Shown here piece by piece: positions 127 to 64,000 of a DNA stretch of 64,000 nucleotides. Origin of the DNA: an uncultured Kiritimatiellota bacterium (GTDB lineage: Bacteria > Verrucomicrobiota > Kiritimatiellia > RFP12 > DVOR01); the NCBI GenBank assembly GCA_944391055.1, contig CALXSF010000005.1:28922-92921 (forward strand), in the 5' to 3' direction. A model generated the notes under the pieces. That model did not search any database, was not told where the DNA came from, and saw only the letters and a program-made list of their open reading frames with translations. Every line of letters begins with the position of its first letter. The stretch's first letter is position 1. A program made the position numbers and the translations under genes.

Positions 127-150
127 CCGCCCCAAGGCAAGAGACGCGCT

Positions 151-1836
151 ATGGAACGGATTCTGACACTCAATATTGGCGCCACGCGCCTGGCGCTGGC
201 CGAGTTCGAGGTGCGCCCTGGCCAAAGCCCAAGCCTCACGCGCCACACCTTCGGCGAGCTGCCCGATGGGGCCGCCGAGGCGCCCGAGACCTTCGGCGTC
301 GAGCTTGAGCAGGCCCTGCGCGGCATGATGGCCGCCTCCGGCATCCGCCCCGGGCGGATCCATGTGGCGCTCTCCGGGCAGATGGCCTTCCCGCGCTTCG
401 TCAAGGTCCTCGCCGAGGGCGAGGAGAAGATGCGCGAGCAGATCCGTTTCGAGGTCGAGCAGAACGTCCCCTTCCCGCTCTCCGAGGCCATTTGGGACGA
501 CGCCCTCGTCGGGGCGCCCAACGCCGGCGAGCAGCACGTCATGATCGTGGCCGCGCGCTCCGACCTCGTCGGCGCCATCGCCAAGGGGTTGCTCAACGCC
601 GGCTGCGAGCCCGAGCTCGTCGACGTGGCGCCCGTCGCCCTCTACAACGCCGTCCGCTTCAACTACCCCGAGGCCGAGGGCTGCACGCTGGTCGTCGACA
701 TCGGCGCGCGCTGCACCAACCTCGTCTTCGTCGAGCAGGATCGCATCTTCTACCGCACCATCCCCGTCGCCGGCAACACCATCACCGCCGAGGTCGCCAA
801 GACCTTCGGGCTCTCCCACGAGGAGGCCGAGCGCTTCAAGTGCGAGCAGGGCCTCGTGGCGCAGGGCGGCGCCTTCGCCGTCGACGACCCCGACGTGGAC
901 CGCCTCTCCAAGGTCATCCGCAACGTGATGACGCGCCTCAACGCCGAGGTCACCCGCTCCATCGCCTTCTACCGCAGCCAGCAGGAAGGCTCCGCGCCCA
1001 CGCGCGTCCTCCTCTCCGGCGCCTCCGCGCAGCTGCCCTACATGCAGAACTTCTTCGAGGAGAAGCTGCAGGTGGCGGCCGACTTCCTCAACCCCTTCCA
1101 GACGGTGTCGTACCCCTCGGACATCGACGCCGACCAGTTCGGGCGCGACGCCTTCTCCCTGCCCGTGCTCGTGGGGCTGGCGCTGCGCCGCGGCCTGACC
1201 TGCCCCGTGGAGATCAACCTGGTCTCCCAGGACATCACCGCCCGGAAGGAGTTCCGCCGCCGCCTCCCCTTCTTCGCCATCGCCGCCGCCGGGCTCGTCT
1301 TCATCATGGGCATCTGGCTGGTCTACGTCGGACGCATGGGCGCGCTCTATGAGCAGCAGGCCCAAAAGATCCAGGAGCGCATCACGGCCTACGAACAGCT
1401 GAAATCCGACTTCGACAAGGCCGACAAGGCCGCCGTCGCCGCCGAGGCCCGGGCCGCCGCCTACCGTGGGCTGCTCGAGGGCCGCCAGACGTGGATGCGC
1501 ATGCTCGTGGCCGTCAACAAGGCCATCCCGGACGGCCTCTGGGTCACCAGCCTCTCCGCGCGACGCTCGGGGACGGCGCTCCAAGGGCTCAACCTGTCGG
1601 TCTCCGTCTGGAAAGACCTCGAGGGCCGCCTCTCCGCCTCCGGCAAGACCATCGACGAGACGGTCGCCGCCAAGCTCACCCAGCAGGATGTCTTCGCCGC
1701 CGACGTCAAGGACATCCCCATCAGCAAGAAGACGCAGCTGCCGTGGATGACCTCGTTTGACATCACCGCCAACCTCCGGGCCGCCCAGACGCCGAAGGAG
1801 GCCAAAGGCAGCGCCGCCCGCCGCAGCAGGAGGTAA
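151..1836 (+). CDS. pilM: Type IV pilus assembly protein PilM fused to a PilN-like domain (actin-like ATPase domain + TM helix + coiled coil)
   Basis: 561-aa ORF. The N-terminus (ILTLNIGATRLALAEFEV...) resembles the PilM/FtsA actin-like fold. One TM helix (LPFFAIAAAGLVFIMGIWLVYVG) is followed by a coiled-coil periplasmic region typical of PilN. Sits in a cluster with a PilO-like gene and a secretin. Confidence 0.7.
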   Translation: MERILTLNIGATRLALAEFEVRPGQSPSLTRHTFGELPDGAAEAPETFGVELEQALRGMMAASGIRPGRIHVALSGQMAFPRFVKVLAEGEEKMREQIRFEVEQNVPFPLSEAIWDDALVGAPNAGEQHVMIVAARSDLVGAIAKGLLNAGCEPELVDVAPVALYNAVRFNYPEAEGCTLVVDIGARCTNLVFVEQDRIFYRTIPVAGNTITAEVAKTFGLSHEEAERFKCEQGLVAQGGAFAVDDPDVDRLSKVIRNVMTRLNAEVTRSIAFYRSQQEGSAPTRVLLSGASAQLPYMQNFFEEKLQVAADFLNPFQTVSYPSDIDADQFGRDAFSLPVLVGLALRRGLTCPVEINLVSQDITARKEFRRRLPFFAIAAAGLVFIMGIWLVYVGRMGALYEQQAQKIQERITAYEQLKSDFDKADKAAVAAEARAAAYRGLLEGRQTWMRMLVAVNKAIPDGLWVTSLSARRSGTALQGLNLSVSVWKDLEGRLSASGKTIDETVAAKLTQQDVFAADVKDIPISKKTQLPWMTSFDITANLRAAQTPKEAKGSAARRSRR

Positions 1837-1843
1837 CAGCAAG

Positions 1844-2908
1844 ATGGACCCCAAGCAAAAACTGATCGCCATCGCCGTCGGCTCCGTCTGCGGCCTCATC
1901 ATCCTGGCGCTGGCCGTGCTCCTCGTCCTCCAGATCGGGCACATGAACGAGGCGCGCGCGGCCCGCGACAACGCCGAGGCGACCATCAACAACTATTACG
2001 CCGCCAAGCCCTATCCCTCCGAAGACAACCGCGCCGTCCGCAAGCAGGACGAGACGGCCCGCGCCGGGTGGGCCGACAAGGCGCGGGCCGTGCTCACGCA
2101 TGGCCTCCAGGTGCCGCAGGGCGAGTCGCCCTCCCAGTTCGTCCAACGGATCGGCGACGCCGTCCGCGGCCTGAACGCCCGCCAAGAGACCGCCGTCGCC
2201 GCCGCCGGGCAGCAGCAGGTCATGGATTATTCCTTCGGCCGCTACGTCGTCCAAGGCGCCATCCCCAAGGACGCGGACGTCCCCCGCCTCGCCCAGCAGT
2301 TCGCCGTCGTTGAGCACGTCTGCGACCTGCTCTTGGACAATGGCGCGCGCGCCATCACCGCCGTCACCCGCGAGGAGTTCGACGCCGCCGCGGCCAAGCC
2401 CGAGGAGGAGGAGCCCCGCACGCGCCGCCGTCGCCGCCGCGCCGAGGAGGAGGAGCCCGCCGCCGCCGTGGGCGCCGCCATCGACCCCATCCTCGCCAAG
2501 GACGGCGTCCGGCGCGAATCCTACACCATCGCCTTCTCCGCGCCCTACGTCGCCATCGCAAAGACGCTCAACGCCCTTGCCGTCGACGACCTTTTCGTGG
2601 TGGTGACCGACCTGTCCGTGGACGCGACCTCCTCCGTCGCCGCCAGCGTCGACGAGTTGATCAAGAAGCGTCAGTCCGCCAAGAGCAACGCCGCCCGGCG
2701 CGCCGCCTCCTCCCGCGCCGCGGCGCAGAAACAGGCGGCCGCGCCCGCCTCGGAGACCTCGCTCTTCGAGGGCGCCTCCCCCGCCGAGCGCCTTGTCACG
2801 GATCCCGCGCACGCCGCGCCGCTGCGGGCCGTCCTGAGCTTTGACGTCTACTCCGCCGCGCCCGCTCAGGCCCCCGCCGCCCCGGCCGAAACGAAGAAAG
2901 GGAACTAA
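1844..2908 (+). CDS. PilO-like inner-membrane pilus/secretion assembly protein (single N-terminal TM helix, periplasmic domain, low-complexity tail)
   Basis: In-frame ATG at 1844 lies 8 nt after the pilMN stop, with an AGGAGG RBS at about 1829-1834. The N-terminal TM helix (IAIAVGSVCGLIILALAVLLVL) and its position between pilMN and the secretin fit PilO. The ORF-track start at 1757 overlaps pilMN and is unlikely. Confidence 0.5.
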   Translation: MDPKQKLIAIAVGSVCGLIILALAVLLVLQIGHMNEARAARDNAEATINNYYAAKPYPSEDNRAVRKQDETARAGWADKARAVLTHGLQVPQGESPSQFVQRIGDAVRGLNARQETAVAAAGQQQVMDYSFGRYVVQGAIPKDADVPRLAQQFAVVEHVCDLLLDNGARAITAVTREEFDAAAAKPEEEEPRTRRRRRRAEEEEPAAAVGAAIDPILAKDGVRRESYTIAFSAPYVAIAKTLNALAVDDLFVVVTDLSVDATSSVAASVDELIKKRQSAKSNAARRAASSRAAAQKQAAAPASETSLFEGASPAERLVTDPAHAAPLRAVLSFDVYSAAPAQAPAAPAETKKGN

Positions 2909-2911
2909 GCC

Positions 2912-4036
2912 ATGGCGAAAGACCTTCCTCCCATTCTGCGCCAATACGACCGCCTCACGGCCGTCGCCGTCCTCGCCATCCTGCTTGTCTCCCTCCTTTA
3001 CCTCATCCTCGCCGGCCTGCAGGAGCAGAAGCGGGTCGAGCGGTATGACGACGAGTTGAATCTGCGGATTCCCTCCGGCTCCCAGATCGCGGCCGCCAAA
3101 CTCGATCAGGACGAGGCGCTGCTCGCCGGGGTCGTCACGCCCGCCAAGACCGCGCTCCTCACCGTCCGCTCCGATGCCGAGGCCCCCAACCTCTTCACGC
3201 CCGCGCGGCGCCTCCTGTGCGTCAAATGCGTCCAGCCGATCCCGTGGCAGGCCGAGCGCTGCCCCTTCTGCAAGACCGAGCAACCCAAGGAGAAGACCAT
3301 CGACCTCTCCACGGTCGACACCGACGGCGACACCATGCCCGACCAGTGGGAGATCGCGCACAAACTGAACCCGCAGGACGCCAACGACGCTGACCTTGAC
3401 GCCGACGGCGACGGCTTCACCAACGTCGAGGAGTTCCAGGCCAAGACCGACCCCAACGACCCCAAGAGCCACCCCGGCTACGAGACCCGCATGACGCTCC
3501 AAGGCATCTCCGGCGAGAAGGTGCCCCTGCGCGCCGTCGGCAAGATGGAGCTGCCCTCCGTCCGCGACGCCGCCGGCAACCCCGTGCGCCAGTTCGAGAT
3601 CACGTTCGTCTCCGTCTCGCAGGACGGCAAGGAAGGCACCACCAGCCTGCGCACGAAGAACGGCGGCGAGATCGGCAAGTCCGGCTTCCGCTTCGTGCGC
3701 TACAACGAGCAGCCGACCAAGCGCATCGAGATCGGCCAGCACAAGCAGGTGCGCTTCATCAACGTCTCCACCATCGACATCGAGCGCATCTCGGACGGCA
3801 AGAAGATCCAACTCACCTTCAAGGATGAGAACAACCCCGCGTGGCCCGGCGACCCCCTGCTGGAGCAGAAGGCGGAGATTGCCATCGACCTGCCGGGCGT
3901 CGAGCCTGTCACCGTCGCCCCGGGCTCCACGTTCACCGTCAAGGGCGAGACCTACACCGTCCGCGGCGTCGACGCCGAGCAGAAATGCGTGCGCATCGAG
4001 AAAAATGCGGAGAAGAAGGTTTTTGAGTTGAAATAA
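2912..4036 (+). CDS. Membrane-anchored protein with a C4 zinc-ribbon and thrombospondin-type-3-like Ca-binding repeats, then a beta-rich C-terminal domain; candidate PilP-like secretin partner
   Basis: N-terminal TM helix (AVAVLAILLVSLLYLILAGL). CVKC...CPFC is a zinc-ribbon. DTDGDTMPDQWE and DADGDGFTNVEEF are TSP3/calcium-binding Asp-rich repeats. The gene sits immediately upstream of the secretin and is translationally coupled (3-nt gap after the previous gene). Confidence 0.5.
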   Translation: MAKDLPPILRQYDRLTAVAVLAILLVSLLYLILAGLQEQKRVERYDDELNLRIPSGSQIAAAKLDQDEALLAGVVTPAKTALLTVRSDAEAPNLFTPARRLLCVKCVQPIPWQAERCPFCKTEQPKEKTIDLSTVDTDGDTMPDQWEIAHKLNPQDANDADLDADGDGFTNVEEFQAKTDPNDPKSHPGYETRMTLQGISGEKVPLRAVGKMELPSVRDAAGNPVRQFEITFVSVSQDGKEGTTSLRTKNGGEIGKSGFRFVRYNEQPTKRIEIGQHKQVRFINVSTIDIERISDGKKIQLTFKDENNPAWPGDPLLEQKAEIAIDLPGVEPVTVAPGSTFTVKGETYTVRGVDAEQKCVRIEKNAEKKVFELK

Positions 4037-4092
4037 TCCACCCGTTGGGCTATACTCTCTTCACGATTTGGATACGGGCGAGACCCAAACTA

Positions 4093-7000
4093 ATGCGGAG
4101 AAAACGTGCTATGACACACTTTGTGCGCTTTGCCATGGTCGGCGTGATTGTCGCCGGGGCGTCTTGTTGCGCCCTCGCGCAACAGCAGGACGACGACCTC
4201 GACTCCCTCTTGGAGGGGTTGATCGAAGAGCCTGCCGCGCAGCCGGAAAAGCCGGCCGACAAAGAACCGGCCGCCGAGCCTGACAAACCCGCCGAACAAG
4301 TGGCCGACGAACCCGCCGGGAACCCCGCCGTCAAGCCGGCAGGGCAAGAGGCCGAGGTGGCCGTCGGGAACCCCGCCGTCAAGCCGGCGGGCCAAGAGGC
4401 CGACGCGCCCGCCGGGAATCCCGCCGTCAAGCCGGCGGGGCAGGAAGCCGTCGCGCCCGCCGTGGCCAAGGAGGAGCCCGCCGCCAAGGAGGAGCCCTCT
4501 GCGGACAAGGAAGAGCCCGCGGAGGAACCCGCCGAGGAGCCTGCGGTCGCCGAGGAGCCTGCCAAGGAACCCCAGGCTGAGCCGGCCGCCGAGCCCGCGG
4601 CCAAAGAGGACGGTCTTTTGGCCGATTTGGACGGCGACACCGCCGCTTTGGACGCGCTGACGGATGAGGATCGCGCCCTGAACGAGTTGGAAATGCTCAT
4701 CCGCCTCAAGAACCAGGGGCTGGACGTCCAAGCCACCGCCTGCCTCCGCAAGGCGCGTCAGCTGATGACCAAGGCTCCCGCCCCCGGGAAAGCCTTTGAG
4801 CAATATCAGGCGGCCATCAAGATGTACATGGACGCGAAGAAATATTTCCGCGAACATGAGGCCAACCTGCCGCTCAAGGCGGAGTGCGACGCCGGCATCC
4901 GCGAAGCCCGTTACCGTCAGGCGCTGACCCTCTTCCAGGACGACGAGTATGCCGAGGCGCTCGATCTCGCCCAGCAGGTGTTGCGCGAAGGCCATCCCCA
5001 GGCGGCGGCCTTGGTCGCCCAGATCCAGGAAGAGATGAATCGTCCGCCGGAGATCCGGCCCACGCCCGTCCTGCCCGAATACGCGCAGGAGGACTACCAG
5101 GCCTCCCGGCTGGCGGTCATGGAGCGCATCAAGCGGGCCACCGTCTATTACCACCTCGCCAAATACAAGGAGGCCAACGATCAGTTGGAGCTCGTGCTCC
5201 GCGACGATCCCAACAACGAGGCCGCCATCAGCCTCCGCGCCCGCATCAACCAGCGCAAGGATTCCCGGGATCGTCAGCTTCAGGCGTCCACCCATGACGC
5301 GATGATCGATGAGGTCTCCCTCAACTGGACCCCGCTCGGCGCCCTTGGCCGCGACTCCGAGGAGCTCTACGCGCCGACCGTCACCTCCGGGGCCAAGGCG
5401 CCCGTCGATGACGCGGGCCAGAAGGAGGCCCAGGCGGTCCTCGCCAAGCTCCAGTACATCCGCCTCCCCGAGTTCTCCATCCGTCCGCCGAGCACGCTCG
5501 CCGATGCGGTTCAGATGTTCGCCGAGATGTCTCGCGCCTATGACAAGCCCGAGCTCCCCCCCGAGGAAAAGGGCGTCTCCTTCGTGTTGAACATGGGCAC
5601 CAACAAGGCCGCCTCCGCCGAGGCGTCGGCCGAGGCCGACCCCTTCGCCACCGACAACACCGCCTCCTCCGGTGGGCTGCCGCCCATCCAGAACATCAAC
5701 CTGACCTACGTCACGCTCAAGGACGCGCTCGACATGGTCTGCGAGGTCACGGGCTCCAAATACATCATCCGCGGCAAGACCGTCGTCATCGTCCCCAATT
5801 CCTATGTCGAGGGCGAGATGGAGACGCGCACGTACAACGTCATGAGCGGGTTGCTCGAGAAGATCAGCGGCGTGCAGTCCGACCTTCAGGCGTCCTCGTC
5901 CTCCTCCGGGTTCGGTGACGGCAGCGACGACTGGGGGAGCATCGGCTCCGCCTCGCTCGAATCGCCCAGCGCCGGCACCACGCCCGAGATGCTCAAGAGT
6001 TTCTTCCAGGAATTGGGCGTGAACTTCGATGGCAATGCCCGAATCGCTTACCTCTCCTCCATCGGCAAGCTCCGCGTCACCAACACCCCCGAGAACCTCG
6101 CCCTGCTGGAGAGCCTGCTCGAGGAGCTCAACGTCACGCCCTATCAGATTGAGGTCGAGGCGCGCTTCGTCGAGGTCAGCCAAGAGGATCTCAACTCCCT
6201 CGGTTTCGAGTGGCAGCTGAACAGCGACATCGTGGGGACCGTCGGTTCCGGCATTGACTGGTCGTCCTCCCACATCCTGGGCAACCCGCAGGGCGGCAAC
6301 TCCGCCGGCGGCATCGGCGCGGGCGGTTACCATGTCTTCCGCAACACCTCTCTGGGCGGCACGGGCGACGCCAACGTCGCCATGCACGGCGGCTCCTTCA
6401 ACAATGGCATGCGCTTCCTTGGCGATGAGACCACCTATGCCAACCGCATCAACCTGAGCGACGCCACCCTCGCGCCCAACGACGAGTTCGCCTCCTTCTC
6501 CGCCGTCTTCGGCAAGATGGATATCACCATGATCCTCCACATGCTGGCCCAGCGCACCGACACGGACATGCTCTCCAGCCCGAAGGTGCTTGCCCGCCCC
6601 GGCCAGGAGGCCATGATCCGCGTCGTCACCGAATGGATTTATCCCACGGAGTTCGACGTCCAGGAACTCGAAGAGGCCGACAACAATTACGACGGCGACA
6701 ACTCCGTCATCGGCGGCGGCGGTGTGCAGGTTCAGGCCCCGCCCGTCAAGTTCGCCGTCGAGCCGCAGTCCTTCGAGAAGCAGGATGTCGGCGTCTCCCT
6801 CCAGGTCATCCCCGAGGTCTCCCAAGAGGGGCAGATGATCAACCTGCTTGTCAATCCCAAGGTCGTGGAATACCTCGGCGACTTCGAGTATGGCATGCAG
6901 GTGCCCTACATCCAGTACGGTATGACCGGCGGCGTCGTCACCTCCGCCTCCGTGGAATACTATCAGGTCTCCATGCCTCAGCCGATGTTCCACTTCCGTG

Positions 7001-7302
7001 AGATCAGCACCTACCTCTCCGTCTACAACGGCTCCACCGTTGTCATGGGCGGCTTGATCACGGAGACGCGGAACTCCTTCGAGGACAAGATCCCGATTTT
7101 GGGCGACCTCCCCTTCATCGGCTTCCTCTTCCGCTCCACGGGTGAGTACAGCGAGAAGCGCAACCTCCTGATCTTCCTCACCGCGCGTCTGGTCGATCCC
7201 GCGGGCCGTCCCCTCAAGACCGCCACCGACGGCCGCATGGGTTCCGCCGCGATGAACAACCAGTCCCCCGCCGAGACGATGGCCTCCGCCGTCCAGCAGT
7301 GA
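4093..7302 (+). CDS. pilQ: Secretin (PilQ/GspD family) outer-membrane channel with a long N-terminal acidic/Pro-Ala-rich repeat extension
   Basis: C-terminal secretin domain (GGLITETRNSFEDKIPILGDLPFIGFLFRSTGEYSEKRNLLIFLTARLVDP). Signal peptide (MTHFVRFAMVGVIVAGASCCALAQQ). The start is chosen downstream of a TATACT -10 at 4051-4056; the ATG at 4111 is an alternative. About 1070 aa. Confidence 0.8.
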   Translation: MRRKRAMTHFVRFAMVGVIVAGASCCALAQQQDDDLDSLLEGLIEEPAAQPEKPADKEPAAEPDKPAEQVADEPAGNPAVKPAGQEAEVAVGNPAVKPAGQEADAPAGNPAVKPAGQEAVAPAVAKEEPAAKEEPSADKEEPAEEPAEEPAVAEEPAKEPQAEPAAEPAAKEDGLLADLDGDTAALDALTDEDRALNELEMLIRLKNQGLDVQATACLRKARQLMTKAPAPGKAFEQYQAAIKMYMDAKKYFREHEANLPLKAECDAGIREARYRQALTLFQDDEYAEALDLAQQVLREGHPQAAALVAQIQEEMNRPPEIRPTPVLPEYAQEDYQASRLAVMERIKRATVYYHLAKYKEANDQLELVLRDDPNNEAAISLRARINQRKDSRDRQLQASTHDAMIDEVSLNWTPLGALGRDSEELYAPTVTSGAKAPVDDAGQKEAQAVLAKLQYIRLPEFSIRPPSTLADAVQMFAEMSRAYDKPELPPEEKGVSFVLNMGTNKAASAEASAEADPFATDNTASSGGLPPIQNINLTYVTLKDALDMVCEVTGSKYIIRGKTVVIVPNSYVEGEMETRTYNVMSGLLEKISGVQSDLQASSSSSGFGDGSDDWGSIGSASLESPSAGTTPEMLKSFFQELGVNFDGNARIAYLSSIGKLRVTNTPENLALLESLLEELNVTPYQIEVEARFVEVSQEDLNSLGFEWQLNSDIVGTVGSGIDWSSSHILGNPQGGNSAGGIGAGGYHVFRNTSLGGTGDANVAMHGGSFNNGMRFLGDETTYANRINLSDATLAPNDEFASFSAVFGKMDITMILHMLAQRTDTDMLSSPKVLARPGQEAMIRVVTEWIYPTEFDVQELEEADNNYDGDNSVIGGGGVQVQAPPVKFAVEPQSFEKQDVGVSLQVIPEVSQEGQMINLLVNPKVVEYLGDFEYGMQVPYIQYGMTGGVVTSASVEYYQVSMPQPMFHFREISTYLSVYNGSTVVMGGLITETRNSFEDKIPILGDLPFIGFLFRSTGEYSEKRNLLIFLTARLVDPAGRPLKTATDGRMGSAAMNNQSPAETMASAVQQ
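4315..4458 (+). repeat. In-frame 48-bp tandem repeat x3 inside the secretin N-terminal extension (AGNPAVKPAGQEA + 3 variable residues)
   Basis: Three near-identical copies of gggaaccccgccgtcaagccggc(a/g)gg(g/c)caagaggcc are visible by eye. They encode G-N-P-A-V-K-P-A-G-Q-E-A three times. Confidence 0.6.
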
Positions 7303-18703: not shown

Positions 18704-18730
18704 GGTCGGTTGTCTCCGTGGGGGGATGGG

Positions 18731-19450: not shown

Positions 19451-19576
19451 AATCGGTGGTCTCCGTCGCGTGTCCCGCCGCACCATGCGGGGGGACGAGG
19501 CCATGATACTTCTTTCCAGGCACGCGTGTCTCGCACTTTCATAGGGACAAAACTGCTGTATACAGGGACGATTCTG

Positions 19577-21376: not shown

Positions 21377-21459
21377 GCCTTCAGTATAAGTTCTTCCGGG
21401 GCGGCGGCCAACGCTTTGCCTCCACGTTGCGCGCCCCTGCGTCCTCGAGGACGCGGCGC

Positions 21460-21948
21460 CTAGGCGCGGCCGCCCCGCTCAAGGGCGAGGAGGCGCGCCT
21501 TGCGGCCGAGGCCGCCGGCGTAGCCGGTGAGGGCGCCGCGCGCCCCGACGACGCGGTGGCAGGGGATGATGAGGCTGACGGGGTTGCGGGCGACGGCGCC
21601 GCCGACGGCCCGGGCGGCGGCGCGCGGCAGGCCGAGCGCCGCGGCGAGCGCGCCGTAGGTCATCGTCTCCCCGAAGGGGATGGCGCGGAGGCGTTCCCAG
21701 ACGGCCCGCCGGAAGGGCGTGCCGCGCGGCGCGAGGGGCGGCGCGAACCCCGGGTCGCGCCCGGCGAAGTAGACCTCCAGCCAGCGCCGCGCCGCGTCGA
21801 AGGCGGGGTGTTCGCGCGCCTCCCGCGCGTCGGGGAGCCCCTCGCCGAAGTGCGCCTGGCCATCGAACCACAGCCCGATGAGCGCCTCCCCCTCCGCCGC
21901 GAGCGTGACGCCCCCCAGCGGCGTGTCGCAGTGTCCGACGCAGACCAT
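21460..21948 (-). CDS. ogt: Methylated-DNA--protein-cysteine methyltransferase (Ogt/MGMT)
   Basis: Active-site IPCHRVV motif and an HTH 'DNA binding methylated-DNA' domain. 162 aa. Confidence 0.8.
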   Translation of the reverse strand: MVCVGHCDTPLGGVTLAAEGEALIGLWFDGQAHFGEGLPDAREAREHPAFDAARRWLEVYFAGRDPGFAPPLAPRGTPFRRAVWERLRAIPFGETMTYGALAAALGLPRAAARAVGGAVARNPVSLIIPCHRVVGARGALTGYAGGLGRKARLLALERGGRA

Positions 21949-48744: not shown

Positions 48745-48784
48745 GGGATGGCTCCTTGGGGGTGAGTGGGGTGGGGGGCGCCTC

Positions 48785-49111
48785 TCAGTGGCTGCCCTTG
48801 CCGTTGCGGGCCTCGTTGACGCGGAGGCGGCGGCCCATCACGGACTTGTCGTGCAGGGCCCGGATGGCGGCCTCGGCCTGCGCGCGGTAGCACATCTCCA
48901 CGAAGCCGAAGCCCTTGCTCTTGTGGGTGTGGCGGTTCTCGATGACGCGCGCGCGCCGCACCTCGCCATACTTGGCGAACGCGGCGCGCAGCTGCTCGTC
49001 GGTCATCTCGTAGCTCAGGTTGCCGACGTAGATCTCGATGCTTTCGCGGGGGCCGGTGGGGGCGGCCTTGCGGAGGCCAAGGCGGGTCAGCAGCGTGGAG
49101 AAAAAGCTCAT
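48785..49111 (-). CDS. RRM-domain RNA-binding protein
   Basis: RNP-2 (IYVGNL) and RNP-1 (KGFGFVEM) motifs. 108 aa. Start at MSFFST; the longer ORF-track N-terminus is unlikely. Confidence 0.7.
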   Translation of the reverse strand: MSFFSTLLTRLGLRKAAPTGPRESIEIYVGNLSYEMTDEQLRAAFAKYGEVRRARVIENRHTHKSKGFGFVEMCYRAQAEAAIRALHDKSVMGRRLRVNEARNGKGSH

Positions 49112-49285
49112 CTCATCTCTTTCGTTCGGGTTCCGGGCGCCCCGGCCCTCGCCGGGGCTGTCGACGTCTGCGCGGCGGGCGCGCACGTTTTGGGACAACG
49201 CCCCCAATGATACCAAAAACGCCCGCGCGGTGTATCACACCCGCGGGCGTCCCGATCCGCGCCGAGGCCTGGGCGCGGCGGCGCC

Positions 49286-51445
<2,160 letters not shown>

Positions 51446-51587
51446 GATCGGACTGCGCTCCTCGCTTTTTCCCTGCGCCGCGGCCGCTCGCCCACGGCGT
51501 GCTTGAAGGCTATAATTATACCAAAAGTAGCACATCGGCGGCCGCCCGTCAAGCGTTTTTTCGCGACCGCCCCGCCTTCCCCCAAAA

Positions 51588-51640
51588 ACGTGTTTGCGGG
51601 CCTCGTTTCCCGGATCGCGCCGCGTCTCCCCCCGAACCTC
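51588..51640. repeat. Isolated partial copy (core plus right flank) of the 110-bp repeat
   Basis: aacgtgtttgcgggcctcgtttcccggatcgcgccgcgtctccccccgaacc is identical to the core of the array units. Confidence 0.6.
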
Positions 51641-51810
51641 GCCGCACCCCGCCAAGACGGCAAGGCCCCGTCGCGGGATGATGGCGCGGCGGGGCAAAAC
51701 AATTTCCCCCCGTTGAAACGGCGCCTTGCGGCCCCGCCCGAGGGGATCAACACATTTATTATAGCAAAAGCCGGCCGATTGTGCCGTGTTTCGGATTGTG
51801 CGCGCCGCCG

Positions 51811-52172
51811 AACCCGCCCCGCCGCGCCGCGCGCCCCGTCCCCCGGCCAAACGTGTTTGCGGGCCTCGTTTCCCGGATCGCGCCGCGTCTCCCCCCGAAC
51901 CCCGCCGCGTCGCGACCCCGAACCCGCCCCGCCGCGCCGCGCGCCCCGTCCCCCGGCCAAACGTGTTTGCGGGCCTCGTTTCTTGGATCGCGCCGTGTCT
52001 CGCCCCGAACCCCGCCGCGCCCCGCCCCCGAACCCGCCCCGCCGCGCCGCGCGCCCCGTCCCCCGCCTAAATGTGTTTGCGGGCCTCGTTTCCCGGATCG
52101 CGCCGTGTCTCCCCCCGAACCCCGCCGCGCCCCGCCCCCGAACCCGCCCCGCCGCGCCGAACGGCTTCGGGA
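51811..52172. repeat. Tandem array of ~3.3 copies of a 110-bp non-coding repeat (~95% identity)
   Basis: Units start at about 51811, 51921 and 52031, with a partial unit from 52141. Each unit reads gaacccgccccgccgcgccgcgcgccccgtcccccggccaaacgtgtttgcgggcctcgtttcccggatcgcgccg(c/t)gtctc(c/g)ccccgaaccccgccgcg... There are no variable spacers, so it is not a CRISPR array. It lies between divergent rpoD (minus) and a secreted-protein gene (plus). Confidence 0.8.
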
Positions 52173-54147: not shown

Positions 54148-54789
54148 ATGAGAAAAGTTTTGTTTGCGTTGCTGGGTGTGGCGATTAGCGGGATGGTTTC
54201 TGCGATTACGTGTGAGTGGTCGTGGTCGTCCAATGGGAGTGCTTGGCAGTCCAATTCGGCTATTTACATGGTTTACTCGCAGGTCCAGTTGGATGCCGAT
54301 CAGGTGGTCAGTGCCGCCAATGTGTCTTATGGTTCTTCGGTAACGGGTGAGAAGAACAGCACGGGGGGAGCGTGGACGTCTCCGACTATGCCGGGATCCA
54401 ATACGATTGTGGTCAGCAGTCCGGCGACCAAGTCTAATACTGAGGCTGGGTCGATTCAGGGTAATGCAGGTTTCTCCGAGGGTAATTTCGTTTGGAACGA
54501 CAGTATGTTTGGGGAGGGCGGCGGTTACTTTTATTTGGTGATTTTCAACAGTACGAGCGCAGACACCGCCACGGAGTTTGCCGTCGCCCAAGCCGGGGAG
54601 AGCGGGCACTTGGTGAAAAATGGCAATGGAGTGGCCATTCCAAGGCCTGGTGAAGATCCTTTGCCAATCAACTACATCGACCCGGTTTGGATTGGCGGCA
54701 CGTTCCGTGATGCGGCGCCGGAGCCGACGGCGCTGGCGTTGCTGGCGCTGGGCGTGGCCGGGGCGGCGCTTCGCCGCCGCGTGCGCTGA
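54148..54789 (+). CDS. PEP-CTERM sorting-domain secreted protein (213 aa)
   Basis: RBS AAGGAGAAAGAG. Signal peptide MRKVLFALLGVAISGMVSA. C-terminal PEPTALALLALGVAGAALRRRVR is a PEP-CTERM anchor. Confidence 0.7.
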   Translation: MRKVLFALLGVAISGMVSAITCEWSWSSNGSAWQSNSAIYMVYSQVQLDADQVVSAANVSYGSSVTGEKNSTGGAWTSPTMPGSNTIVVSSPATKSNTEAGSIQGNAGFSEGNFVWNDSMFGEGGGYFYLVIFNSTSADTATEFAVAQAGESGHLVKNGNGVAIPRPGEDPLPINYIDPVWIGGTFRDAAPEPTALALLALGVAGAALRRRVR

Positions 54790-58461: not shown

Positions 58462-58476
58462 CCGTCAGGACGGGCC

Positions 58477-59142
58477 ATGAGGACGATCGAGGAATTGGAC
58501 GCGATCCATGAGGCGCTGGCGCGGGCGTTCGCGGAGAAACCGGCGCCGATCATGGATTTGGTGGCGGCGCAGACGCGCGACCCGTATTGTGTGCTGGTGG
58601 GGACGATCCTGTCGGCGCGGACGCGCGACCAGGTGACCGCGGAGGCGGTTCGGCGGCTGCTGCCGGCGGCGCCGGACCCGGAGGCGCTGGGGCGGCTCTC
58701 GGTGGAGGAATTGGAGGCGCTGATCCGGCCGGTGGGCTTCTTCCACGCGAAGGCGCGCCACTTGGCGGCGCTGCCGGGGGCGCTGCGGGAGCGCTTCGGC
58801 GGGCGTATCCCGGAGACGGTGGAGGAACTGTGCGAGCTGCCGGGGGTGGGGCGCAAGACGGCGAACCTGGTGGTGGCGCTGGGGTTCGGCAAGCCGGCGA
58901 TCTGCGTGGACACGCACGTCCACCGGATCAACAATCTGCTGGGGGTGGTGCGCACGAAGACGCCGTTGGAGACGGAGATGGCGCTGCGGCGGATTTTGCC
59001 GGAGCGGCTGTGGATCCCGTGGAACAGCATCTTCGTCTCGTTCGGGCAGACGTGCTGCAAGCCGGTGGGGGCGCGGTGCGGGGAGTGCCCGGTGGCGCGC
59101 TTCTGCAAGGGGCCGGCGCGGCGGAAGGGGGGGCGGCGATGA
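58477..59142 (+). CDS. nth: Endonuclease III (DNA glycosylase/AP lyase)
   Basis: HhH-GPD (LPGVGRKTANLVVALGFG). Catalytic Lys/Asp context. 4Fe-4S cluster loop CKPVGARCGECPVARFC. Confidence 0.9.
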   Translation: MRTIEELDAIHEALARAFAEKPAPIMDLVAAQTRDPYCVLVGTILSARTRDQVTAEAVRRLLPAAPDPEALGRLSVEELEALIRPVGFFHAKARHLAALPGALRERFGGRIPETVEELCELPGVGRKTANLVVALGFGKPAICVDTHVHRINNLLGVVRTKTPLETEMALRRILPERLWIPWNSIFVSFGQTCCKPVGARCGECPVARFCKGPARRKGGRR

Positions 59143-59813
59143 GGGAGGGGCTGCCGGCGCTGGCGCTGTTCGACGTGGACGGGACGCTCTTTGAGTCGGA
59201 GCGGCTGTGGGCGGAGGCGCTGGCGCTCTCGCTGGAGCGGCTGGGGGTGCGGGAACGCGCGGGGGCGCTCTCGGCGCTGATTTACGGGAAGGCGTGGCCG
59301 GACGCGTTCGCGGCGCTGCGGGGGCGCTTCCCGGAGGCGTTGGGGGGGATCTCGGCGGGGGGGCTGGGGCGGATGCTGTGCGAGGACTTCGGGCGGCTCT
59401 TCGCGGCGGCGCCGCCGGTGATCGGGCCGGCCGTGGCGCTGCTGCGGCGCCTGCGGGGGGCGGGGGTGCCGTGCGCCTACGTCTCGGGGAGCCCGCGGGC
59501 GACGATCGCGCAGAATCTGCGGGCGGCGGGGCTGGAGGGGCTGCTGGACGAGGCGCGGTCGGTGCCCTCGGACGACGTGGCGCGGGGCAAGCCGGACCCG
59601 GAGGGTTATCGGCTGGCGATGGCGCGCTTCGGGGCGGACCCGGCGGCGGTGGCGGTCTTCGAGGATTCGGGGGTCGGGGCGCGGGCGGCGCTGGCGGCCG
59701 GGGTGGGGCGGGTCTACGTGTGCCCGCCGCCCTCCGCGCCGCCGCAGGCGTACCCGCCCGGCGCGCGGCGCCTGCCCTCGTGGGACGCGGCCTTCCCGGC
59801 GTGCGGGGCGTGA
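59139..59813 (+). CDS. HAD-superfamily hydrolase (beta-phosphoglucomutase-like subfamily IA)
   Basis: Motif I ALFDVDGTLFES, motif III (GKPDPEGY) and motif IV (FEDSGVGARAA). Start ATG overlaps the nth stop. The ORF-track frame 58587.. is an extension. Confidence 0.7.
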   Translation: MREGLPALALFDVDGTLFESERLWAEALALSLERLGVRERAGALSALIYGKAWPDAFAALRGRFPEALGGISAGGLGRMLCEDFGRLFAAAPPVIGPAVALLRRLRGAGVPCAYVSGSPRATIAQNLRAAGLEGLLDEARSVPSDDVARGKPDPEGYRLAMARFGADPAAVAVFEDSGVGARAALAAGVGRVYVCPPPSAPPQAYPPGARRLPSWDAAFPACGA

Positions 59814-59922
59814 GGGGCCCCGGCGGGCCCGCCGGCCGTGCCCTTTTTGGGCCGTGGCGCAAAAAAACCTTCCCTTTTGGCGGGCTTTCCTCTATACTAT
59901 TTTCAACGTGAAAGGTATGCAC

Positions 59923-61068
59923 ATGAGACGGTTCGCTTTGAGGCGCGGCTTCACGATGATCGAGCTCTTGGTCGTCGTCGTGATTCTTGGCGTGTTGGCG
60001 GCGGCGCTGATGCCGGCCGTCGGGAAGTTCCTTGACGCGGGCGAGGCGGCCACCTCCCGGAACAACCTGATGCGGCTGGGGCGCGCGGCGCTCACCTATC
60101 GCACGGACCATGGGAACTACTATCCCGCGGCGGGGGGCTATTTCACCGAGTTCACCCTTCAGGCCGAGGGCTCGCCCGAGCGGCGGTACGGCCGCGCGCG
60201 CGGGTGGGTCTACTTCGAGCACGACTGCCCGCGCTCGCGCGGCGACGTCGAGGCCAAGGACGAGATCGGCGACGGCAACCACCAGGCCGACGGCATGCTG
60301 GGCGGCACCGGCCGCAAGGACGAGAGCGGCAACCTCCAGGGCACCGAGGTGAACGAGGAGGGCTGCTGCCTCTGCTTCAACTCGCGCAGCTCGGAGGGCG
60401 GGCTCGGCGCGCGCCCCGCGAATTGGAAGGAGCGGGCCACGGACATGTGGTCGCAGGCGCAGACGGCCATCGTCAACGGCTGCCTCTATTCCTACGTGGG
60501 CGAGGATCTGGAGTGCTTCAAGAACCCCACCTTCGAGAAGCGCGCGCTGGAGAAGTTCGGCGTGGCCGCGCAGGACGTGGCCCGCGCCTACGCCATGAAC
60601 GTCATCACCGGCACGGACGACGACCTCTACGAGACCGACTGCTACAAGGACGGCGGTTACGAGAAGGCCTATTGCCACCCAAGCTCCGAGACCGCGCACT
60701 ACACCATCCGCCTCGGCTCCGCCGGCCTCCGCCCCCGCATCGACTCCGACGACACCAACAAGGGCGAGGCCATGCCCGCGAAGACCGCGCTCATCGTGGA
60801 GCTGGACCTCGACAACACGGCCCTCTCCTCCGACAACTCCCTGGAGGGCGACCAGGTGTGGGACTGGGACGAGGGCGACGAGAGCATGGGCTTCAACCAC
60901 GAGGACAACGGCGCGATGTTCGCGCACGTCTGCTTCGCCGACGGCCACGTGGAGACCATCCGAGACCCCTCCTCCGACCCCGAGAACCCGGACGACAACA
61001 AGCGGCGGGCGCTCTCCAAATGGTATGGCTCCGGCGGCCTGAACGCCTCCGGCGAAAAACTGGACTGA
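59923..61068 (+). CDS. Prepilin-type N-terminal cleavage/methylation-domain protein with DUF1559-like C-terminus (T2SS pseudopilin-like)
   Basis: RRGFTMIELLVVVVILGVLAAAL is a class III signal (G/FTxIELLVV). The C-terminal region ...NGAMFAHVCFADGHVETI resembles the H-x(n)-DGHV motif of PVC DUF1559 proteins. TATACT -10 at 59893-59898. Confidence 0.7.
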   Translation: MRRFALRRGFTMIELLVVVVILGVLAAALMPAVGKFLDAGEAATSRNNLMRLGRAALTYRTDHGNYYPAAGGYFTEFTLQAEGSPERRYGRARGWVYFEHDCPRSRGDVEAKDEIGDGNHQADGMLGGTGRKDESGNLQGTEVNEEGCCLCFNSRSSEGGLGARPANWKERATDMWSQAQTAIVNGCLYSYVGEDLECFKNPTFEKRALEKFGVAAQDVARAYAMNVITGTDDDLYETDCYKDGGYEKAYCHPSSETAHYTIRLGSAGLRPRIDSDDTNKGEAMPAKTALIVELDLDNTALSSDNSLEGDQVWDWDEGDESMGFNHEDNGAMFAHVCFADGHVETIRDPSSDPENPDDNKRRALSKWYGSGGLNASGEKLD

Positions 61069-61077
61069 TCGACCCAT

Positions 61078-64000
61078 GACCATGACCACGCAGTTTCGCA
61101 TCTTGGCGCTTTGCGCGTTTGCGGCGGGCCTGACCTTTGGGCCCGCCGCGCGGGCGCAGGGCACGGCGCAGACCTCCGAGGTGTCCTACGCCCTCACCCT
61201 CATCGACGCGGGCGACGGCTCCGGCAACACCCAGACCGGCGGCCCCGTCACCGACGCCACCACGCACGTGCGCGTGAAGGTGACCGTTTCCATCCCCCGC
61301 TCGGAGGGCTCCTCCGCTTACGGCGACATCCCCGCCTACGCCAGCCCCGCCCGTCTGATGTACCGCCTCCACCGGGGCCCCGCCACGGCCTTCGACGGCT
61401 CCATCGCCCTCACCCGCGACGCCCCCTACCGCGACGCCGCCGGCACGCCGATGACCACCGCCTTCTATCCCATGCCCCAGGCGACCACCTCCTCCGGCGG
61501 CGTCACAATCAGCCAGACCGACCCCACCCGGCTCAACTACGCCGGCGTCGCCTCCCGCTCCGACGACAACGCCCTCGGCGACCCTTACGCCGACTATCTC
61601 GCCTACGGCCGCGTCTCCGACCCCGCCCGCTGGGAGGCCACCTTCCTCAGCCCCGCCTATGCTATCGCCGACATCGAGGCCGACGCCGACGGCCAGTACG
61701 CGATGCTCAAATCCCTGCTCGACGGCTCGGCCACCTACGAGTGGTACGCCGCCAGCCGCTACGGCCTCGGCGCCTTCGCCCGCATCTCCGACATCCAGGA
61801 CCACGGCCGCAACCAATCCTTCACCGACGTCCGTCTCTGGACGCCGGAGACGGATCCGAACCACGACTGGTCGGGCGTCGTCACCGACCGCGACTCCGTC
61901 CGCACCCTCGGCGAGAACTTCGCCTTCCGCTTGGCCTCCATGCCCAACAGGGGCGGCATGGCCTCCTCGTGGTTCATCCGCGGCGGCGCGGTGGGCGACG
62001 CCAACAGCGGCAGCGGCGGCCTGCAGCTCCTCAACGTCGTCGGCGTGGAGGATGACTACTCCGATTATCCCCGCGTCGAGTCCCCCCTCTATCCCGACGG
62101 CATCGCCTCCGTCTCCTTCCAGGCCTCCGTCCCCGGCTCCGACCCCGACGGCACCCCGCAGACGCTGCTCGTCCAATGCTCCACCGACGGCGGCCAGCGG
62201 TGGGCCGACGTCGAGCGCGTGACCCTCTCCGCCTCCGGCTTCAACGACTACGCCATCGACTTCGGGGAGCTGGCGCCCTCCGGCGTCGCCAACACGCGCT
62301 TCCGCGTCATCCGCGTCTCCGAGTCGCTCGGCGACGGCCAGGCCAACCTCGGCACCATCGCCATCCGCAACCTGCTCGTCCGCTCCGCCGCGCCCGTCGC
62401 GGACTTCTCCGCGCCCGTCTGCGTCTCCGCCACGGAATCCGCCGAGCCTTACGCCACCGAGCCGTTCGAGGTGAACATCGGCGCCACCGGCTCGTCCACC
62501 GAGACGCCGCGCGGCTATGAGGCCGCCATGCGCCTGCGCCGCCGCGCCGAGGGCGACACCACCCGCGCCTGGCGCGACGTCCCGGTCTCCGTCTCCGAGA
62601 CCTCCGGCAACGCCACGCTCTCGGCCTCCTTCACGCCCGGCACACTCCTGCTCAACCCAGACGGCACCGTCAACGCCGCCGAGGGGGCCTTCTTCCTGGA
62701 CGCGGACGGCGCCGTCACCGGCCTCCTGCCCGGCGTCTACGACTTGGCGCTGGATTATGCCATCCTAGGTTCCTTCGCCGCCGGGCGCGAGGAGATCGAC
62801 GGGCGCGAGCGCGTGGAGGGCACGCTCACCTCCTATCCCGTCACCACCCAGCTCCCGTCCGGGGAGCCGGAGACCATCCAGAAGCCCTTCCTGGTGAACG
62901 TCCGCGAGCATCAGGCGCTGGACGAGTCGGCCTTCCTGCGCGTCACCTACCGCGGCGGCGCGGGCACCGACCTCAACCCCTACACGGCGGGCACGCTCGA
63001 CCTGCCGCTCCTGCCGGCCTCCCGGGGGCCGCACCGGTGGCGCGTCGACGTCTCGCGCGTCCTGCGCCTCACCGACGACGAGGACGCCGTCTATGCCTGG
63101 ACCTATGACCCCGACGCCGCGACCGAGGGCGACGAGCGCTTCGAGCCTTATTACCTTTCCTTCAAGGTTTGCGTGACGGATTCCGACGGGGCGTCGCGCT
63201 GGTACGGGCAGACCTCCGCCGCCGCGCCCGGCTCCCTGCCCCCGACCATCGAGGCCGTCCCCGCCGTCACCGACTCCCTCTCCCTGGCCGCCTCCGAGGC
63301 GGACGCCGTGCCGGTGGTGGTGCCGCTTTCCGCGCTGCCGAACTCGCACGTCACCGTGGAGCTGGACCTTGCCTCCGAGACCTCGCCGGAGTACAGCCTC
63401 TGCGGCTCGTATTGGCAGGACTTCAACACGTGGTACGCCACCTCCGACCGCTTCGGCCCCGCGGAGTTCCGCGAGAACGTCACCTCCCGCGTCGCCGACT
63501 TCAACTGCGTCACGACGAATACGGTCGACGGCGTCGTCGTCGACAGCGGCTGGATCCCCGACGAGGGGCCGCTCGCCGACACCACCTCCTTCCTTGAGAC
63601 CTTCCCGGTCGGCCGCGGCAACAACCAGCGCGGCGAGTATCCTTTCTTCATGGAGGGCGGCACCTACATCGCCACCTGCAACTTCCGCCAGTGGGGCGCC
63701 GGCGGCGACCTCGCCGAGCCGCGTTACCTCCGCGAGAACGAGACGTCGAGCTATTATTCCACCTACGTCCAGTTCGCCCGGGACACCGAGGTGGTGCTCC
63801 GCCGTTCGTGGAGCCGCCAGCCCGACGGCACGTACAGCCCCGACGCCCAGATCCGCCTGCGCGGCTCGGGCGAGGGCGTCTGGCCCCGCACCGACAGTGG
63901 CCGCGGCGTGACGCTCAACGGCGTCGGCGCCGTCTCCTTCACGCTCGGCCTCTCCATCCCCTACAACCTCTCCCACATCGCCCGCCTCATCTCCGCCGAC
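61078..64000 (+). CDS. Very large secreted hypothetical protein (>974 aa), 3' end beyond window
   Basis: ATG at 61078, 10 nt after the previous stop. Signal peptide MTMTTQFRILALCAFAAGLTFGPAARAQG. Hand translation found no in-frame stop to the window end. The ORF track omits it, presumably because it lists only complete ORFs. Antisense ORFs 60893..62176 and 62765..63976 are considered artifacts. Confidence 0.55.

What the first reader, a model, noticed from the sequence alone, without database searches (positions are those of the whole stretch)
59923..64000. DUF1559-type pseudopilin gene immediately followed by a giant secreted protein
A prepilin-like protein (class III signal GFTMIELLVVV, DUF1559-like C-terminus ending ...FADGHVETI) has its own TATACT promoter. 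Ten nucleotides after it starts an uninterrupted open frame of more than 2.9 kb, encoding a signal-peptide-bearing, Thr/Ser/Asp-rich protein that continues past the window. In PVC bacteria DUF1559 pseudopilins are abundant but their cargo is unknown. A tightly linked giant secreted protein is a candidate substrate or adhesin of a pseudopilus-dependent secretion route.
Basis: partly seen in the sequence, partly recalled or inferred. Interest (0 to 1): 0.5.

Follow-up and report, generated by a model that had tools for sequence, protein, structure and literature searches.

The report
Conserved pilin-plus-giant-protein gene pair
An uncultured Kiritimatiellia (PVC) bacterium carries a two-gene unit, conserved across its relatives, that pairs an oversized type-IV-pilin-like protein with a 3,952-residue exported protein matching no known family; this offers a testable case of a pilin with one dedicated partner.

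Summary
Window 59923-61068 (+) encodes a 381-aa protein with a class III prepilin signal. Seven nt later (ATG 61076) a frame stays open for 975 codons to the window end. Public contigs identical to the window show that gene is 3,952 aa.

The linkage is not chance. In all 8 pilin lineages examined (40-100% identity, genome GC 44-70%), a collinear 3,469-4,084-aa homologue follows the pilin gene within about 40 nt. Flanking genes differ. Loci retrieved through the giant's C-terminus show the pilin gene's tail directly upstream (4/4 visible). The unit is exactly two genes.

The "DUF1559" label fails: there is no PF07596 hit, and profile comparison with genuine DUF1559 proteins aligns only the N-terminal helix.

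The giant has a Sec signal peptide, no BLAST-detectable repeats, and no Pfam, NCBIfam or PDB sequence match. Only 21 relatives exist among 1.84 billion representatives. Its N-terminus models as CBM/MAM-like beta-jelly-rolls.

Best reading (inferred, about 0.4): the pilin-like protein couples the giant glycan-binding or adhesive protein to a type-4-filament machine for export or display, as in TcpB-TcpF or minor pilins-PilY1. I rate it a new variant of a known kind, of moderate interest.

The parts
59893..59898 (+). -10-like hexamer TATACT, about 25 nt upstream of the pilin ATG
   Evidence: Present in the sequence. The same position holds TATACT in L007 and L010, TATAAT in L008 and TATAGA in L009. 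The consensus scan found no full sigma-70 promoter because the -35 is weak. Its function is inferred.
59910..59915 (+). Shine-Dalgarno-like GAAAGG, 7 nt before ATG 59923
   Evidence: Sequence. It aligns with GAGAGG in the relatives.
59923..61068 (+). Gene for a 381-aa type-IV-pilin-like protein. It belongs to a Kiritimatiellia-specific family of about 70 clusters (90% identity level) spanning 40-100% identity.
59923..59949 (+). Class III (prepilin) leader MRRFALRRG; predicted cleavage after G9, before F10
   Evidence: N_methyl and TIGR02532 hits. G9 and F10 are nearly invariant and E14 (E+5) is invariant in 43 homologues. Cleavage is inferred.
60925..60960 (+). C-terminal HVCFADGHVETI motif, resembling the 'DG' end of the H-X9-DG motif
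   Evidence: TIGR04294 matches residues 336-348 only, at 16.3 bits against a cutoff of 19. V336, F338, D340 and G341 are invariant. JGI names some relatives 'H-X9-DG protein'.
61069..61075 (+). 7-nt intergenic spacer; the two genes are probably co-transcribed
   Evidence: Spacers in relatives run from a 20-nt overlap as called (L096, L097) to 38 nt.
61076..64000 (+). First 975 codons of a 3,952-aa giant gene that continues past the window
   Evidence: There is no Pfam, NCBIfam or PDB sequence match. Only 21 relatives were found among 1.84e9 representatives.
61076..61156 (+). Predicted Sec signal peptide (27 aa, ...AARA|QG)
   Evidence: Read from the sequence. Homologues share the hydrophobic core and A-x-A site. 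AF2 pLDDT is below 50 for residues 1-32. No signal-peptide predictor was available.
61970..62386 (+). Beta-jelly-roll (CBM/MAM-like) module, residues ~299-437 of the giant. One of several beta-sandwich domains in the window part.
127..7302 (+). Not part of the conserved unit. This is a candidate machine in the same genome: PilM-like gene, two unassigned genes (one with a TSP3 repeat), and a 1,091-aa TPR-secretin.
   Evidence: Pfam PilM_2 at 7e-37 and Secretin at 1e-29. It lies 53 kb from the pair. Any functional link is pure inference.

Best explanation
The pair is a self-contained, probably co-transcribed two-gene unit specific to a subclade of Kiritimatiellia.

Gene 1 encodes an enlarged type-IV-pilin-like protein. 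It has a class III signal, an invariant Glu+5, a long alpha-1 helix and a roughly 320-residue head.

Gene 2 encodes a protein of about 420 kDa that is exported by Sec. It has no BLAST-detectable repeats and is almost entirely beta in its modelled N-terminal quarter. That quarter consists of CBM/MAM-like jelly-rolls. No membrane anchor or sorting motif is evident in the C-terminal residues read by eye.

Most likely mechanism (inferred): after Sec export and folding in the periplasm, the giant protein is bound by the head of its cognate pilin-like partner. The partner is processed by the prepilin peptidase and sits at the tip, or in the first turn, of a type-4 filament (T2SS- or T4P-like; a PilM/secretin set exists in the same genome). 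Filament growth then pushes the giant through the secretin. The giant is either released, or held on the surface as a glycan-binding or adhesive organelle.

Shown: the identity of both genes, their conservation, their exclusive pairing, and the fold class of the giant's N-terminus.

Inferred: physical interaction, use of a filament machine, surface location, and ligand.
For: Pairing. The giant follows the pilin gene within about 40 nt in the window lineage and in 7 further pilin lineages at 40-57% pilin identity. Upstream genes are unrelated in each case. Examples are RpoD/phosphorylase, LptFG, a dihydroorotate dehydrogenase-like gene, a PA14 protein and PdxJ.

Reciprocal test. Four of the five loci fetched with the giant's C-terminus show '...KWYGSGG..GEKLD*' right before the giant's start; the fifth (L091) begins inside the giant gene, so its upstream side is not visible. 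In the four loci that extend past the giant's stop, the downstream genes differ and are housekeeping: LeuRS, FeoB, FtsW/RNase G and ClpP.

Co-divergence. Pilin identity against giant identity (BLASTP) runs 57/47-49, 50/41, 42/35 and 40/25-27%.

Pilin nature. Searches support it. E+5, which is needed for filament assembly in characterised pilins (established knowledge), is invariant.

Giant. It has a Sec signal. Conservation is uniform along about 4,000 aa. The N-terminal fold is beta-jelly-roll of CBM/MAM type.

Machine. PilM and a secretin are in the same window.

Precedent. A large minor pilin that recognises a single Sec-exported partner encoded beside it is known for TcpB-TcpF and CofB-CofJ (PMC10120004). 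A large non-pilin protein held at a pilus tip by minor pilins is known for PilY1 (PMC7541494).
Against: The conserved unit contains no ATPase, platform, secretin or peptidase gene. Known pilin-cargo pairs sit inside their pilus operons.

Only one pilin-like gene occurs in the 64-kb window. PilY1-type tip complexes use four minor pilins.

A folded protein of about 420 kDa is far larger than any known T2SS or T4P substrate, so passage through a secretin is uncertain.

Confidence: 0.4

Rival explanations
1. Periplasmic tether. The pilin-like protein never enters a filament. Its N-terminal helix serves only as an inner-membrane anchor, and its head holds or chaperones the giant protein in the periplasm, for example as a scaffold that captures polysaccharide in the periplasm.
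For: The pair is separate from any machinery genes. PVC genomes hold hundreds of pilin-like DUF1559 proteins, far more than any filament needs. Pfam names DUF1559 'SBP_bac_10'. The giant's size argues against passage through a secretin.
Against: The invariant Glu+5 and the near-invariant G-1/F+1 are features selected for peptidase processing and filament assembly rather than for mere anchoring. This family is not DUF1559.
Confidence: 0.25
2. Secreted enzyme with a dedicated targeting pilin. The giant is a free exoenzyme, such as a polysaccharide-degrading multi-domain protein with cryptic catalytic domains in residues ~1000-3950 that were not modelled. The pilin acts only as its export-specificity factor.
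For: Kiritimatiellia are known as polysaccharide degraders (own knowledge). The window holds a heparinase II/III gene. The N-terminal modules resemble CBMs, which normally accompany glycoside hydrolases. The TcpF and CofJ precedent involves released proteins.
Against: No catalytic family was detected in 12 full-length giants by Pfam or NCBIfam, nor by a PDB profile search. No anchor was found either, so this rival differs from the best explanation only in the protein's final fate.
Confidence: 0.2
3. Incidental neighbours. The pilin is an ordinary pseudopilin paralogue, and its adjacency to a large gene has no functional meaning.
For: Pilin-like genes are very numerous in PVC genomes.
Against: Linkage held in 8/8 and 4/4 reciprocal tests across genomes of 44-70% GC, with changing flanks, near-zero spacing and parallel divergence. 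The two families are comparably small: about 70 pilin clusters at 90% identity against 16 full-length giant representatives at 50%.
Confidence: 0.03

Closest known systems
TcpB-TcpF (Vibrio cholerae TCP) and CofB-CofJ (ETEC CFA/III): a minor pilin and its single cognate exoprotein
   Same: Both have a large pilin-like protein and one Sec-exported non-pilin protein encoded beside it, giving a one-to-one relation. In the known systems the pilin at the filament tip binds the partner and carries it through the secretin (PMC10120004; PMC9565799 and PMC6048534, listed).
   Different: No sequence homology was found. The partner here is far larger (3,952 aa) and non-homologous. The pair stands alone, outside any pilus operon. 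The known export signal is a disordered N-terminal peptide. Here only about 5-9 residues separate the signal-peptide cleavage site from the first modelled strand.
PilY1/PilC with minor pilins (type IVa pilus priming and tip complex)
   Same: Both involve a large Sec-exported non-pilin protein encoded next to pilin-like genes. In the known system that protein sits at the pilus tip as an adhesin (PMC7541494).
   Different: No PilY1/PilC family appears among the Pfam hits for the giants. There is one pilin gene rather than four. The protein is much larger than PilY1 (about 1,160 aa in P. aeruginosa, from my own knowledge), and no beta-propeller or vWA domain was detected.
DUF1559 (PF07596) / H-X9-DG pilin-like proteins of Planctomycetota, Verrucomicrobiota and Lentisphaerota
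   Same: The N-terminal 70 residues are shared (hhalign probability 99.3%). The C-terminal '..F.DG.V..I' motif and the overall length are similar.
   Different: There is no PF07596 match. The head is not alignable to the DUF1559 profile. The His-to-DG spacing is 13 or 4 residues, not 9. This family appears dedicated to one partner gene rather than massively paralogous; copy number per genome was not checked.
Giant genes of Omnitrophota next to T2SS/T4P-like loci (bioRxiv 10.1101/2023.11.21.568195)
   Same: Both are very large, mostly unannotated bacterial proteins with attachment or carbohydrate-type folds seen only by structure prediction, encoded near genes with class III signal peptides.
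   Different: [quoted passage not shown] Here the gene is 12 kb, has a plain Sec signal, shows no such domain, and has a single pilin gene as its only conserved neighbour.

Membership tests
Type IV pilin-like proteins (type 4 filament subunits) | Class III signal: short basic leader ending in Gly, then Phe/Met and about 20 hydrophobic residues with Glu at +5 | tested here: met
   PF07963 scores 29.5 bits (cutoff 21.2). TIGR02532 scores 32.2 bits (cutoff 16.3). E14 is invariant and G9/F10 are at least 90% conserved in 43 sequences.
Type IV pilin-like proteins (type 4 filament subunits) | Lollipop fold: a long N-terminal alpha-helix packed on a beta-sheet head | tested here: inconclusive
Type IV pilin-like proteins (type 4 filament subunits) | Cleavage and N-methylation by a prepilin peptidase, and polymerisation by an ATPase/platform machine | not testable with these tools
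   No peptidase or ATPase gene lies in the window; only PilM and a secretin are present.
DUF1559 / SBP_bac_10 (PF07596) | Match to PF07596 above the gathering score (23.3 bits) | tested here: not met
   No hit at E<=0.1 for the window protein. None of the roughly 70 family members carries PF07596. 29 of 29 control DUF1559 proteins do hit it.
DUF1559 / SBP_bac_10 (PF07596) | Head domain homologous to the DUF1559 head | tested here: not met
   hhalign of A1 against A5 aligns only columns 34-106 of the query, which is the N-terminal helix.
H-X9-DG C-terminal domain (TIGR04294) | Score of at least 19 bits; His, nine residues, then Asp-Gly near the C-terminus | tested here: inconclusive
   16.3 bits, covering residues 336-348 only. 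The spacing read from the sequence is H-X13-DG or H-X4-DG. JGI labels two members of a related cluster as H-X9-DG proteins.
T2SS major pseudopilin GspG (TIGR01710) | Equivalog score of at least 88.85 bits over the full 134-residue model | tested here: not met
   40.2 bits, matching model positions 1-61 only.
PilY1 / PilC pilus tip adhesins | PilY1/PilC C-terminal beta-propeller domain, detectable by Pfam | tested here: not met
   No Pfam family at E<=0.01 in 12 full-length giants, and none at E<=1 in the window lineage's first 3,331 aa apart from a chance GH49 hit.
Pilin-exoprotein pairs of the TcpB-TcpF / CofB-CofJ type | The exoprotein gene lies within the pilus biogenesis operon | tested here: not met
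   Flanking genes are housekeeping and differ between lineages.
Pilin-exoprotein pairs of the TcpB-TcpF / CofB-CofJ type | A disordered N-terminal export signal on the mature exoprotein that binds the minor pilin | not testable with these tools
   AF2 has low confidence for residues 1-32 and the first strand begins at residue 37. No complex prediction was available.
Verru_Chthon cassette (TIGR02596, TIGR02599 and partners) | Scores above the cutoffs for the cassette proteins | tested here: not met
   The pilin scores 19.8 bits (cutoff 70) and 15.3 bits (cutoff 256.5), on the N-terminal motif only. The giants have no NCBIfam hit.
Lamin-tail-domain (LTD) modules, considered for the thrice-repeated 'PYxWVY..W[LI]NE..E[LI]..GW' module | Detectable similarity to PF00932 or to solved LTD structures | tested here: not met
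   Pfam found nothing at E<=10. A PDB profile search found nothing at E<=10.

The most novel reading that the evidence does not exclude
This would be a dedicated 'one pilin, one cargo' export or display module that can work with a type-4-filament machine encoded elsewhere in the genome. The specialised pilin would recognise a single ~420-kDa protein from an unannotated family and carry it through the outer membrane. That would make it the largest known substrate of a type-4 filament, and a first concrete cargo for a PVC-type pilin-like protein with the H..DG-like C-terminal architecture.
Probability: 0.25. Interest if true: 0.7.

Novelty: new variant of a known kind. Interest (0 to 1): 0.5.

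Why it matters
PVC bacteria encode very large numbers of pilin-like proteins whose roles are unknown. How type-4 filaments recognise their substrates is also poorly understood, apart from two small Vibrio/ETEC examples.

This pair offers a clean genetic handle. One specialised pilin is always coupled to one giant exported protein, and the pair is conserved across a whole subclade of uncultured Kiritimatiellia (sample sources were not determined). If the two proteins interact, the system would show how a filament machine handles a ~420-kDa client. It would also assign a role to a ~4,000-residue protein family that has no annotation in Pfam, NCBIfam or the PDB. If the giant binds glycans, it bears on how these polysaccharide specialists attach to or harvest their substrates.

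Tried and rejected
1. The genome-contig scan with the full pilin alignment was swamped by the generic IELLVV pilin motif. I reused those loci as a genuine DUF1559 control set.

2. The DUF1559 assignment was rejected.

3. The lamin-tail-domain idea for the triplicated module was tested three ways and is unsupported.

4. The search for homologous proteins with the giant's N-terminus returned only one broken homologue. Intact giants seem to be missing from that index. The exhaustive representative search recovered them.

5. Self-BLAST found no internal repeats. Only profile-profile comparison did.

6. Foldseek of the pilin model against the PDB found nothing. The afdb50 library was unavailable.

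7. The hairpin after the upstream HAD gene (59808-59870) folds no better than shuffled sequence (z = 0.5), so I do not claim it as a terminator.

8. The sigma-70 consensus scan found no promoter.

9. Literature searches for Kiritimatiellae with pseudopilin, for H-X9-DG, and for DUF1559 with pseudopilin found no description of this pair.
Full report
**1. What is in the sequence**

The + strand holds an ORF that ends at TGA 61066-61068. Of the three possible starts, ATG 59923 gives the 381-aa product that is on record in public assemblies (23 contigs read). That start also fits the family alignment, with a 9-residue leader: MRRFALRRG|FTMIELLVVV. The N-terminus passes Pfam N_methyl (29.5 bits, cutoff 21.2) and TIGR02532 (32.2 bits, cutoff 16.3).

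Seven nucleotides after the stop, ATG 61076 opens a frame that runs 975 codons to base 64000 without a stop.

A long open frame in 70%-GC DNA is weak evidence by itself; an 899-aa antisense ORF overlaps the same region. Three things show this frame is coding:
- It has coding-type composition (GC3 0.94, GC2 0.54).
- On contigs 100% identical to the window it is a 3,952-aa gene.
- It has collinear homologues in genomes with GC as low as 44%.

**2. Organism**

The window's leucyl-tRNA synthetase has its best named relatives in 'Kiritimatiellia bacterium' MAGs (82%, 67% and 63% identity). The only named members of the pilin family are also Kiritimatiellia. The PVC attribution is therefore right. 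The organism is uncultured and known only from metagenome assemblies.

**3. The linkage is real and exclusive**

The pilin defines a tight family of about 70 clusters, 352-411 aa long, at 40-100% identity. I looked up the genomic place of eight lineages:
- the window lineage (L001-L006)
- L007, 57% pilin identity
- P0055, 50%
- P0068, 42%
- P0070, 40%
- P0047, 53%
- P0064, 46%
- P0037, 56%

In every case the next gene, starting between a 20-nt overlap as called and 38 nt downstream, is a giant of 3,469-4,084 aa. In L007 the giant is interrupted by one in-frame TAG. The upstream genes are different each time.

The four giants whose DNA was compared are collinear homologues over more than 3,000 residues (24.6-41.2% identity).

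I then ran the converse test. I used the C-terminal 620 residues of the giants as the query in metagenome contigs. That retrieved five loci. The four whose 5' end reaches the giant's start all show the end of the pilin gene ('...KWYGSGG..GEKLD*') just before it.

The genes downstream of the giant are housekeeping, differ between loci, and are partly on the other strand: LeuRS, FeoB, FtsW/RNase G/LptD and ClpP. The conserved unit is therefore exactly two genes.

A -10-like hexamer and a GAGAGG-type ribosome-binding site are conserved upstream of the pilin gene in the window and four relatives. This fits a unit with its own promoter, although a consensus scan does not call one.

**4. The pilin-like protein**

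Invariant features across 43 sequences include:
- Glu+5
- three Cys residues (C102, C149, C151)
- an acidic GDQVWDWD block
- FADGHVE
- a KLSKWYGSGG tail

The protein is not a DUF1559 protein. It has no PF07596 hit. As a control I assembled 29 proteins from the mis-aimed genome scan, and all 29 hit PF07596. That control profile aligns to this family only over the first 72 columns. The H-X9-DG model is sub-threshold (16.3 bits, cutoff 19) and covers only the 'DG' half. Some relatives are nevertheless labelled that way by JGI.

**5. The giant protein**

It has a Sec-type signal peptide (AARA|QG), shared by the homologues. By eye, the C-terminal 70 residues show no transmembrane stretch or PEP-CTERM motif. 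The C-terminus is a conserved '...GDGxLVLLGK...FFRAVLLS' segment.

No Pfam family was found at E<=0.01 and no NCBIfam family at E<=0.1 in 12 full-length members, apart from one chance hit in a single member. A PDB sequence-profile search also found no relative. An exhaustive profile search of 1.84 billion representatives found 21 proteins, of which 16 are full-length giants.

Conservation is even along the whole length. BLAST sees no repeats. Profile comparison does reveal a module present three times (near residues 1940, 2665 and 3395; probability 96-98%) and a jelly-roll module present at least twice (94%).

**6. Mechanism**

The evidence shows an obligate genetic partnership between a filament-type pilin and a giant periplasm-exported protein.

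The best-supported model, by analogy, is that the pilin head binds the giant and couples it to a type-4-filament machine for export or surface display. Two precedents exist. TcpB and CofB each recognise a single neighbouring exoprotein (PMC10120004). Minor pilins hold PilY1 at the pilus tip (PMC7541494). The invariant Glu+5 argues that the protein really does enter a filament. A PilM-secretin cluster lies 53 kb away in the same window.

Against this model:
- No machinery gene belongs to the unit.
- There is only one pilin gene in the window.
- The client is far larger than any known substrate.

The main rival is a membrane-anchored periplasmic tether. A variant of the main model is a released exoenzyme whose catalytic domains have not been detected. 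Chance adjacency is excluded.

**7. Comparison and novelty**

The pair works most like the known pilin-plus-partner systems, but it is a member of none of them; the membership test gives the details. I found no paper describing it. I rate it a new variant of a known kind, of moderate interest. The linkage is solid and the giant's family is unannotated. The function remains inferred.

**8. Limits**

- Structure prediction covered only the first quarter of the giant.
- No complex prediction was possible.
- Whole genomes could not be inspected.
- One collection scan was wasted.

Noticed in passing
window 127-7302 (+): A type-IV-pilus/T2SS-like envelope cluster. It comprises a PilM_2 protein (127-1836), an unassigned 385-aa ORF, a protein with a bacterial TSP3 repeat (2909-4036), and a 1,091-aa secretin with weak, sub-threshold TPR-like matches (4027-7302).
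   Followed up: partly
L007 4945-4947: The giant-gene homologue in this relative carries a single in-frame TAG. Homology to the window's giant resumes in the same frame 24 nt later. This could be a nonsense mutation, an assembly error or read-through; I did not resolve which.
   Followed up: partly
L008 1-3586; L010 1-6797; L096 1-9110: Other giant genes (4,662, 5,475 and 4,865 aa; with Laminin_G_3, plus a faint TSP3_bac hit in the L010 gene) lie a few kb upstream of the pair in three relatives. In L096 a 1,193-aa PA14/F5_F8_type_C protein lies between them. These genomes carry several giant surface-type genes close together.
   Followed up: no
window 16229-21478 (-): A heparinase II/III-like gene (19577-21478) lies next to a PEP-CTERM protein (18731-19576) and an 833-aa protein with no Pfam match (16229-18730). 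Together they form a possible polysaccharide-processing trio. A second PEP-CTERM protein lies at 54148-54789.
   Followed up: no
window 61011-61068 and alignment A1: The last ~20 residues of the pilin (KLSKWYGSGG..GEKLD) are among its most conserved parts, even in low-GC relatives. They directly abut the giant's start codon. The conservation could reflect a protein contact or a translational-coupling signal.
   Followed up: no
giant protein residues ~1940, ~2665, ~3395 (P0073 numbering; outside the window): A ~100-aa module with the signature PYxWVY...G.VW[LI]NE...E[LI]...GW occurs three times (hhalign probability 96-98%). It looks like a lamin-tail-domain signature, but no test supported that.
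   Followed up: yes
window 46249-52066 (-) versus L008 4446-9721 (+): Glycogen phosphorylase and RpoD lie near the pair both in the window and in the 42%-identity relative L008, in different orientation and at a different distance. This may be a remnant of wider synteny around the unit.
   Followed up: no
L009 65-871: Fragments of a group II intron reverse transcriptase/maturase (RVT_1, GIIM) lie about 7 kb upstream of the pair in this relative.
   Followed up: no
window 58465-61164 (-): An 899-aa antisense ORF rich in Pro, Arg and Ala overlaps the pilin gene. It is a typical high-GC artefact and a reminder that ORF length alone is not evidence of coding in this genome.
   Followed up: yes
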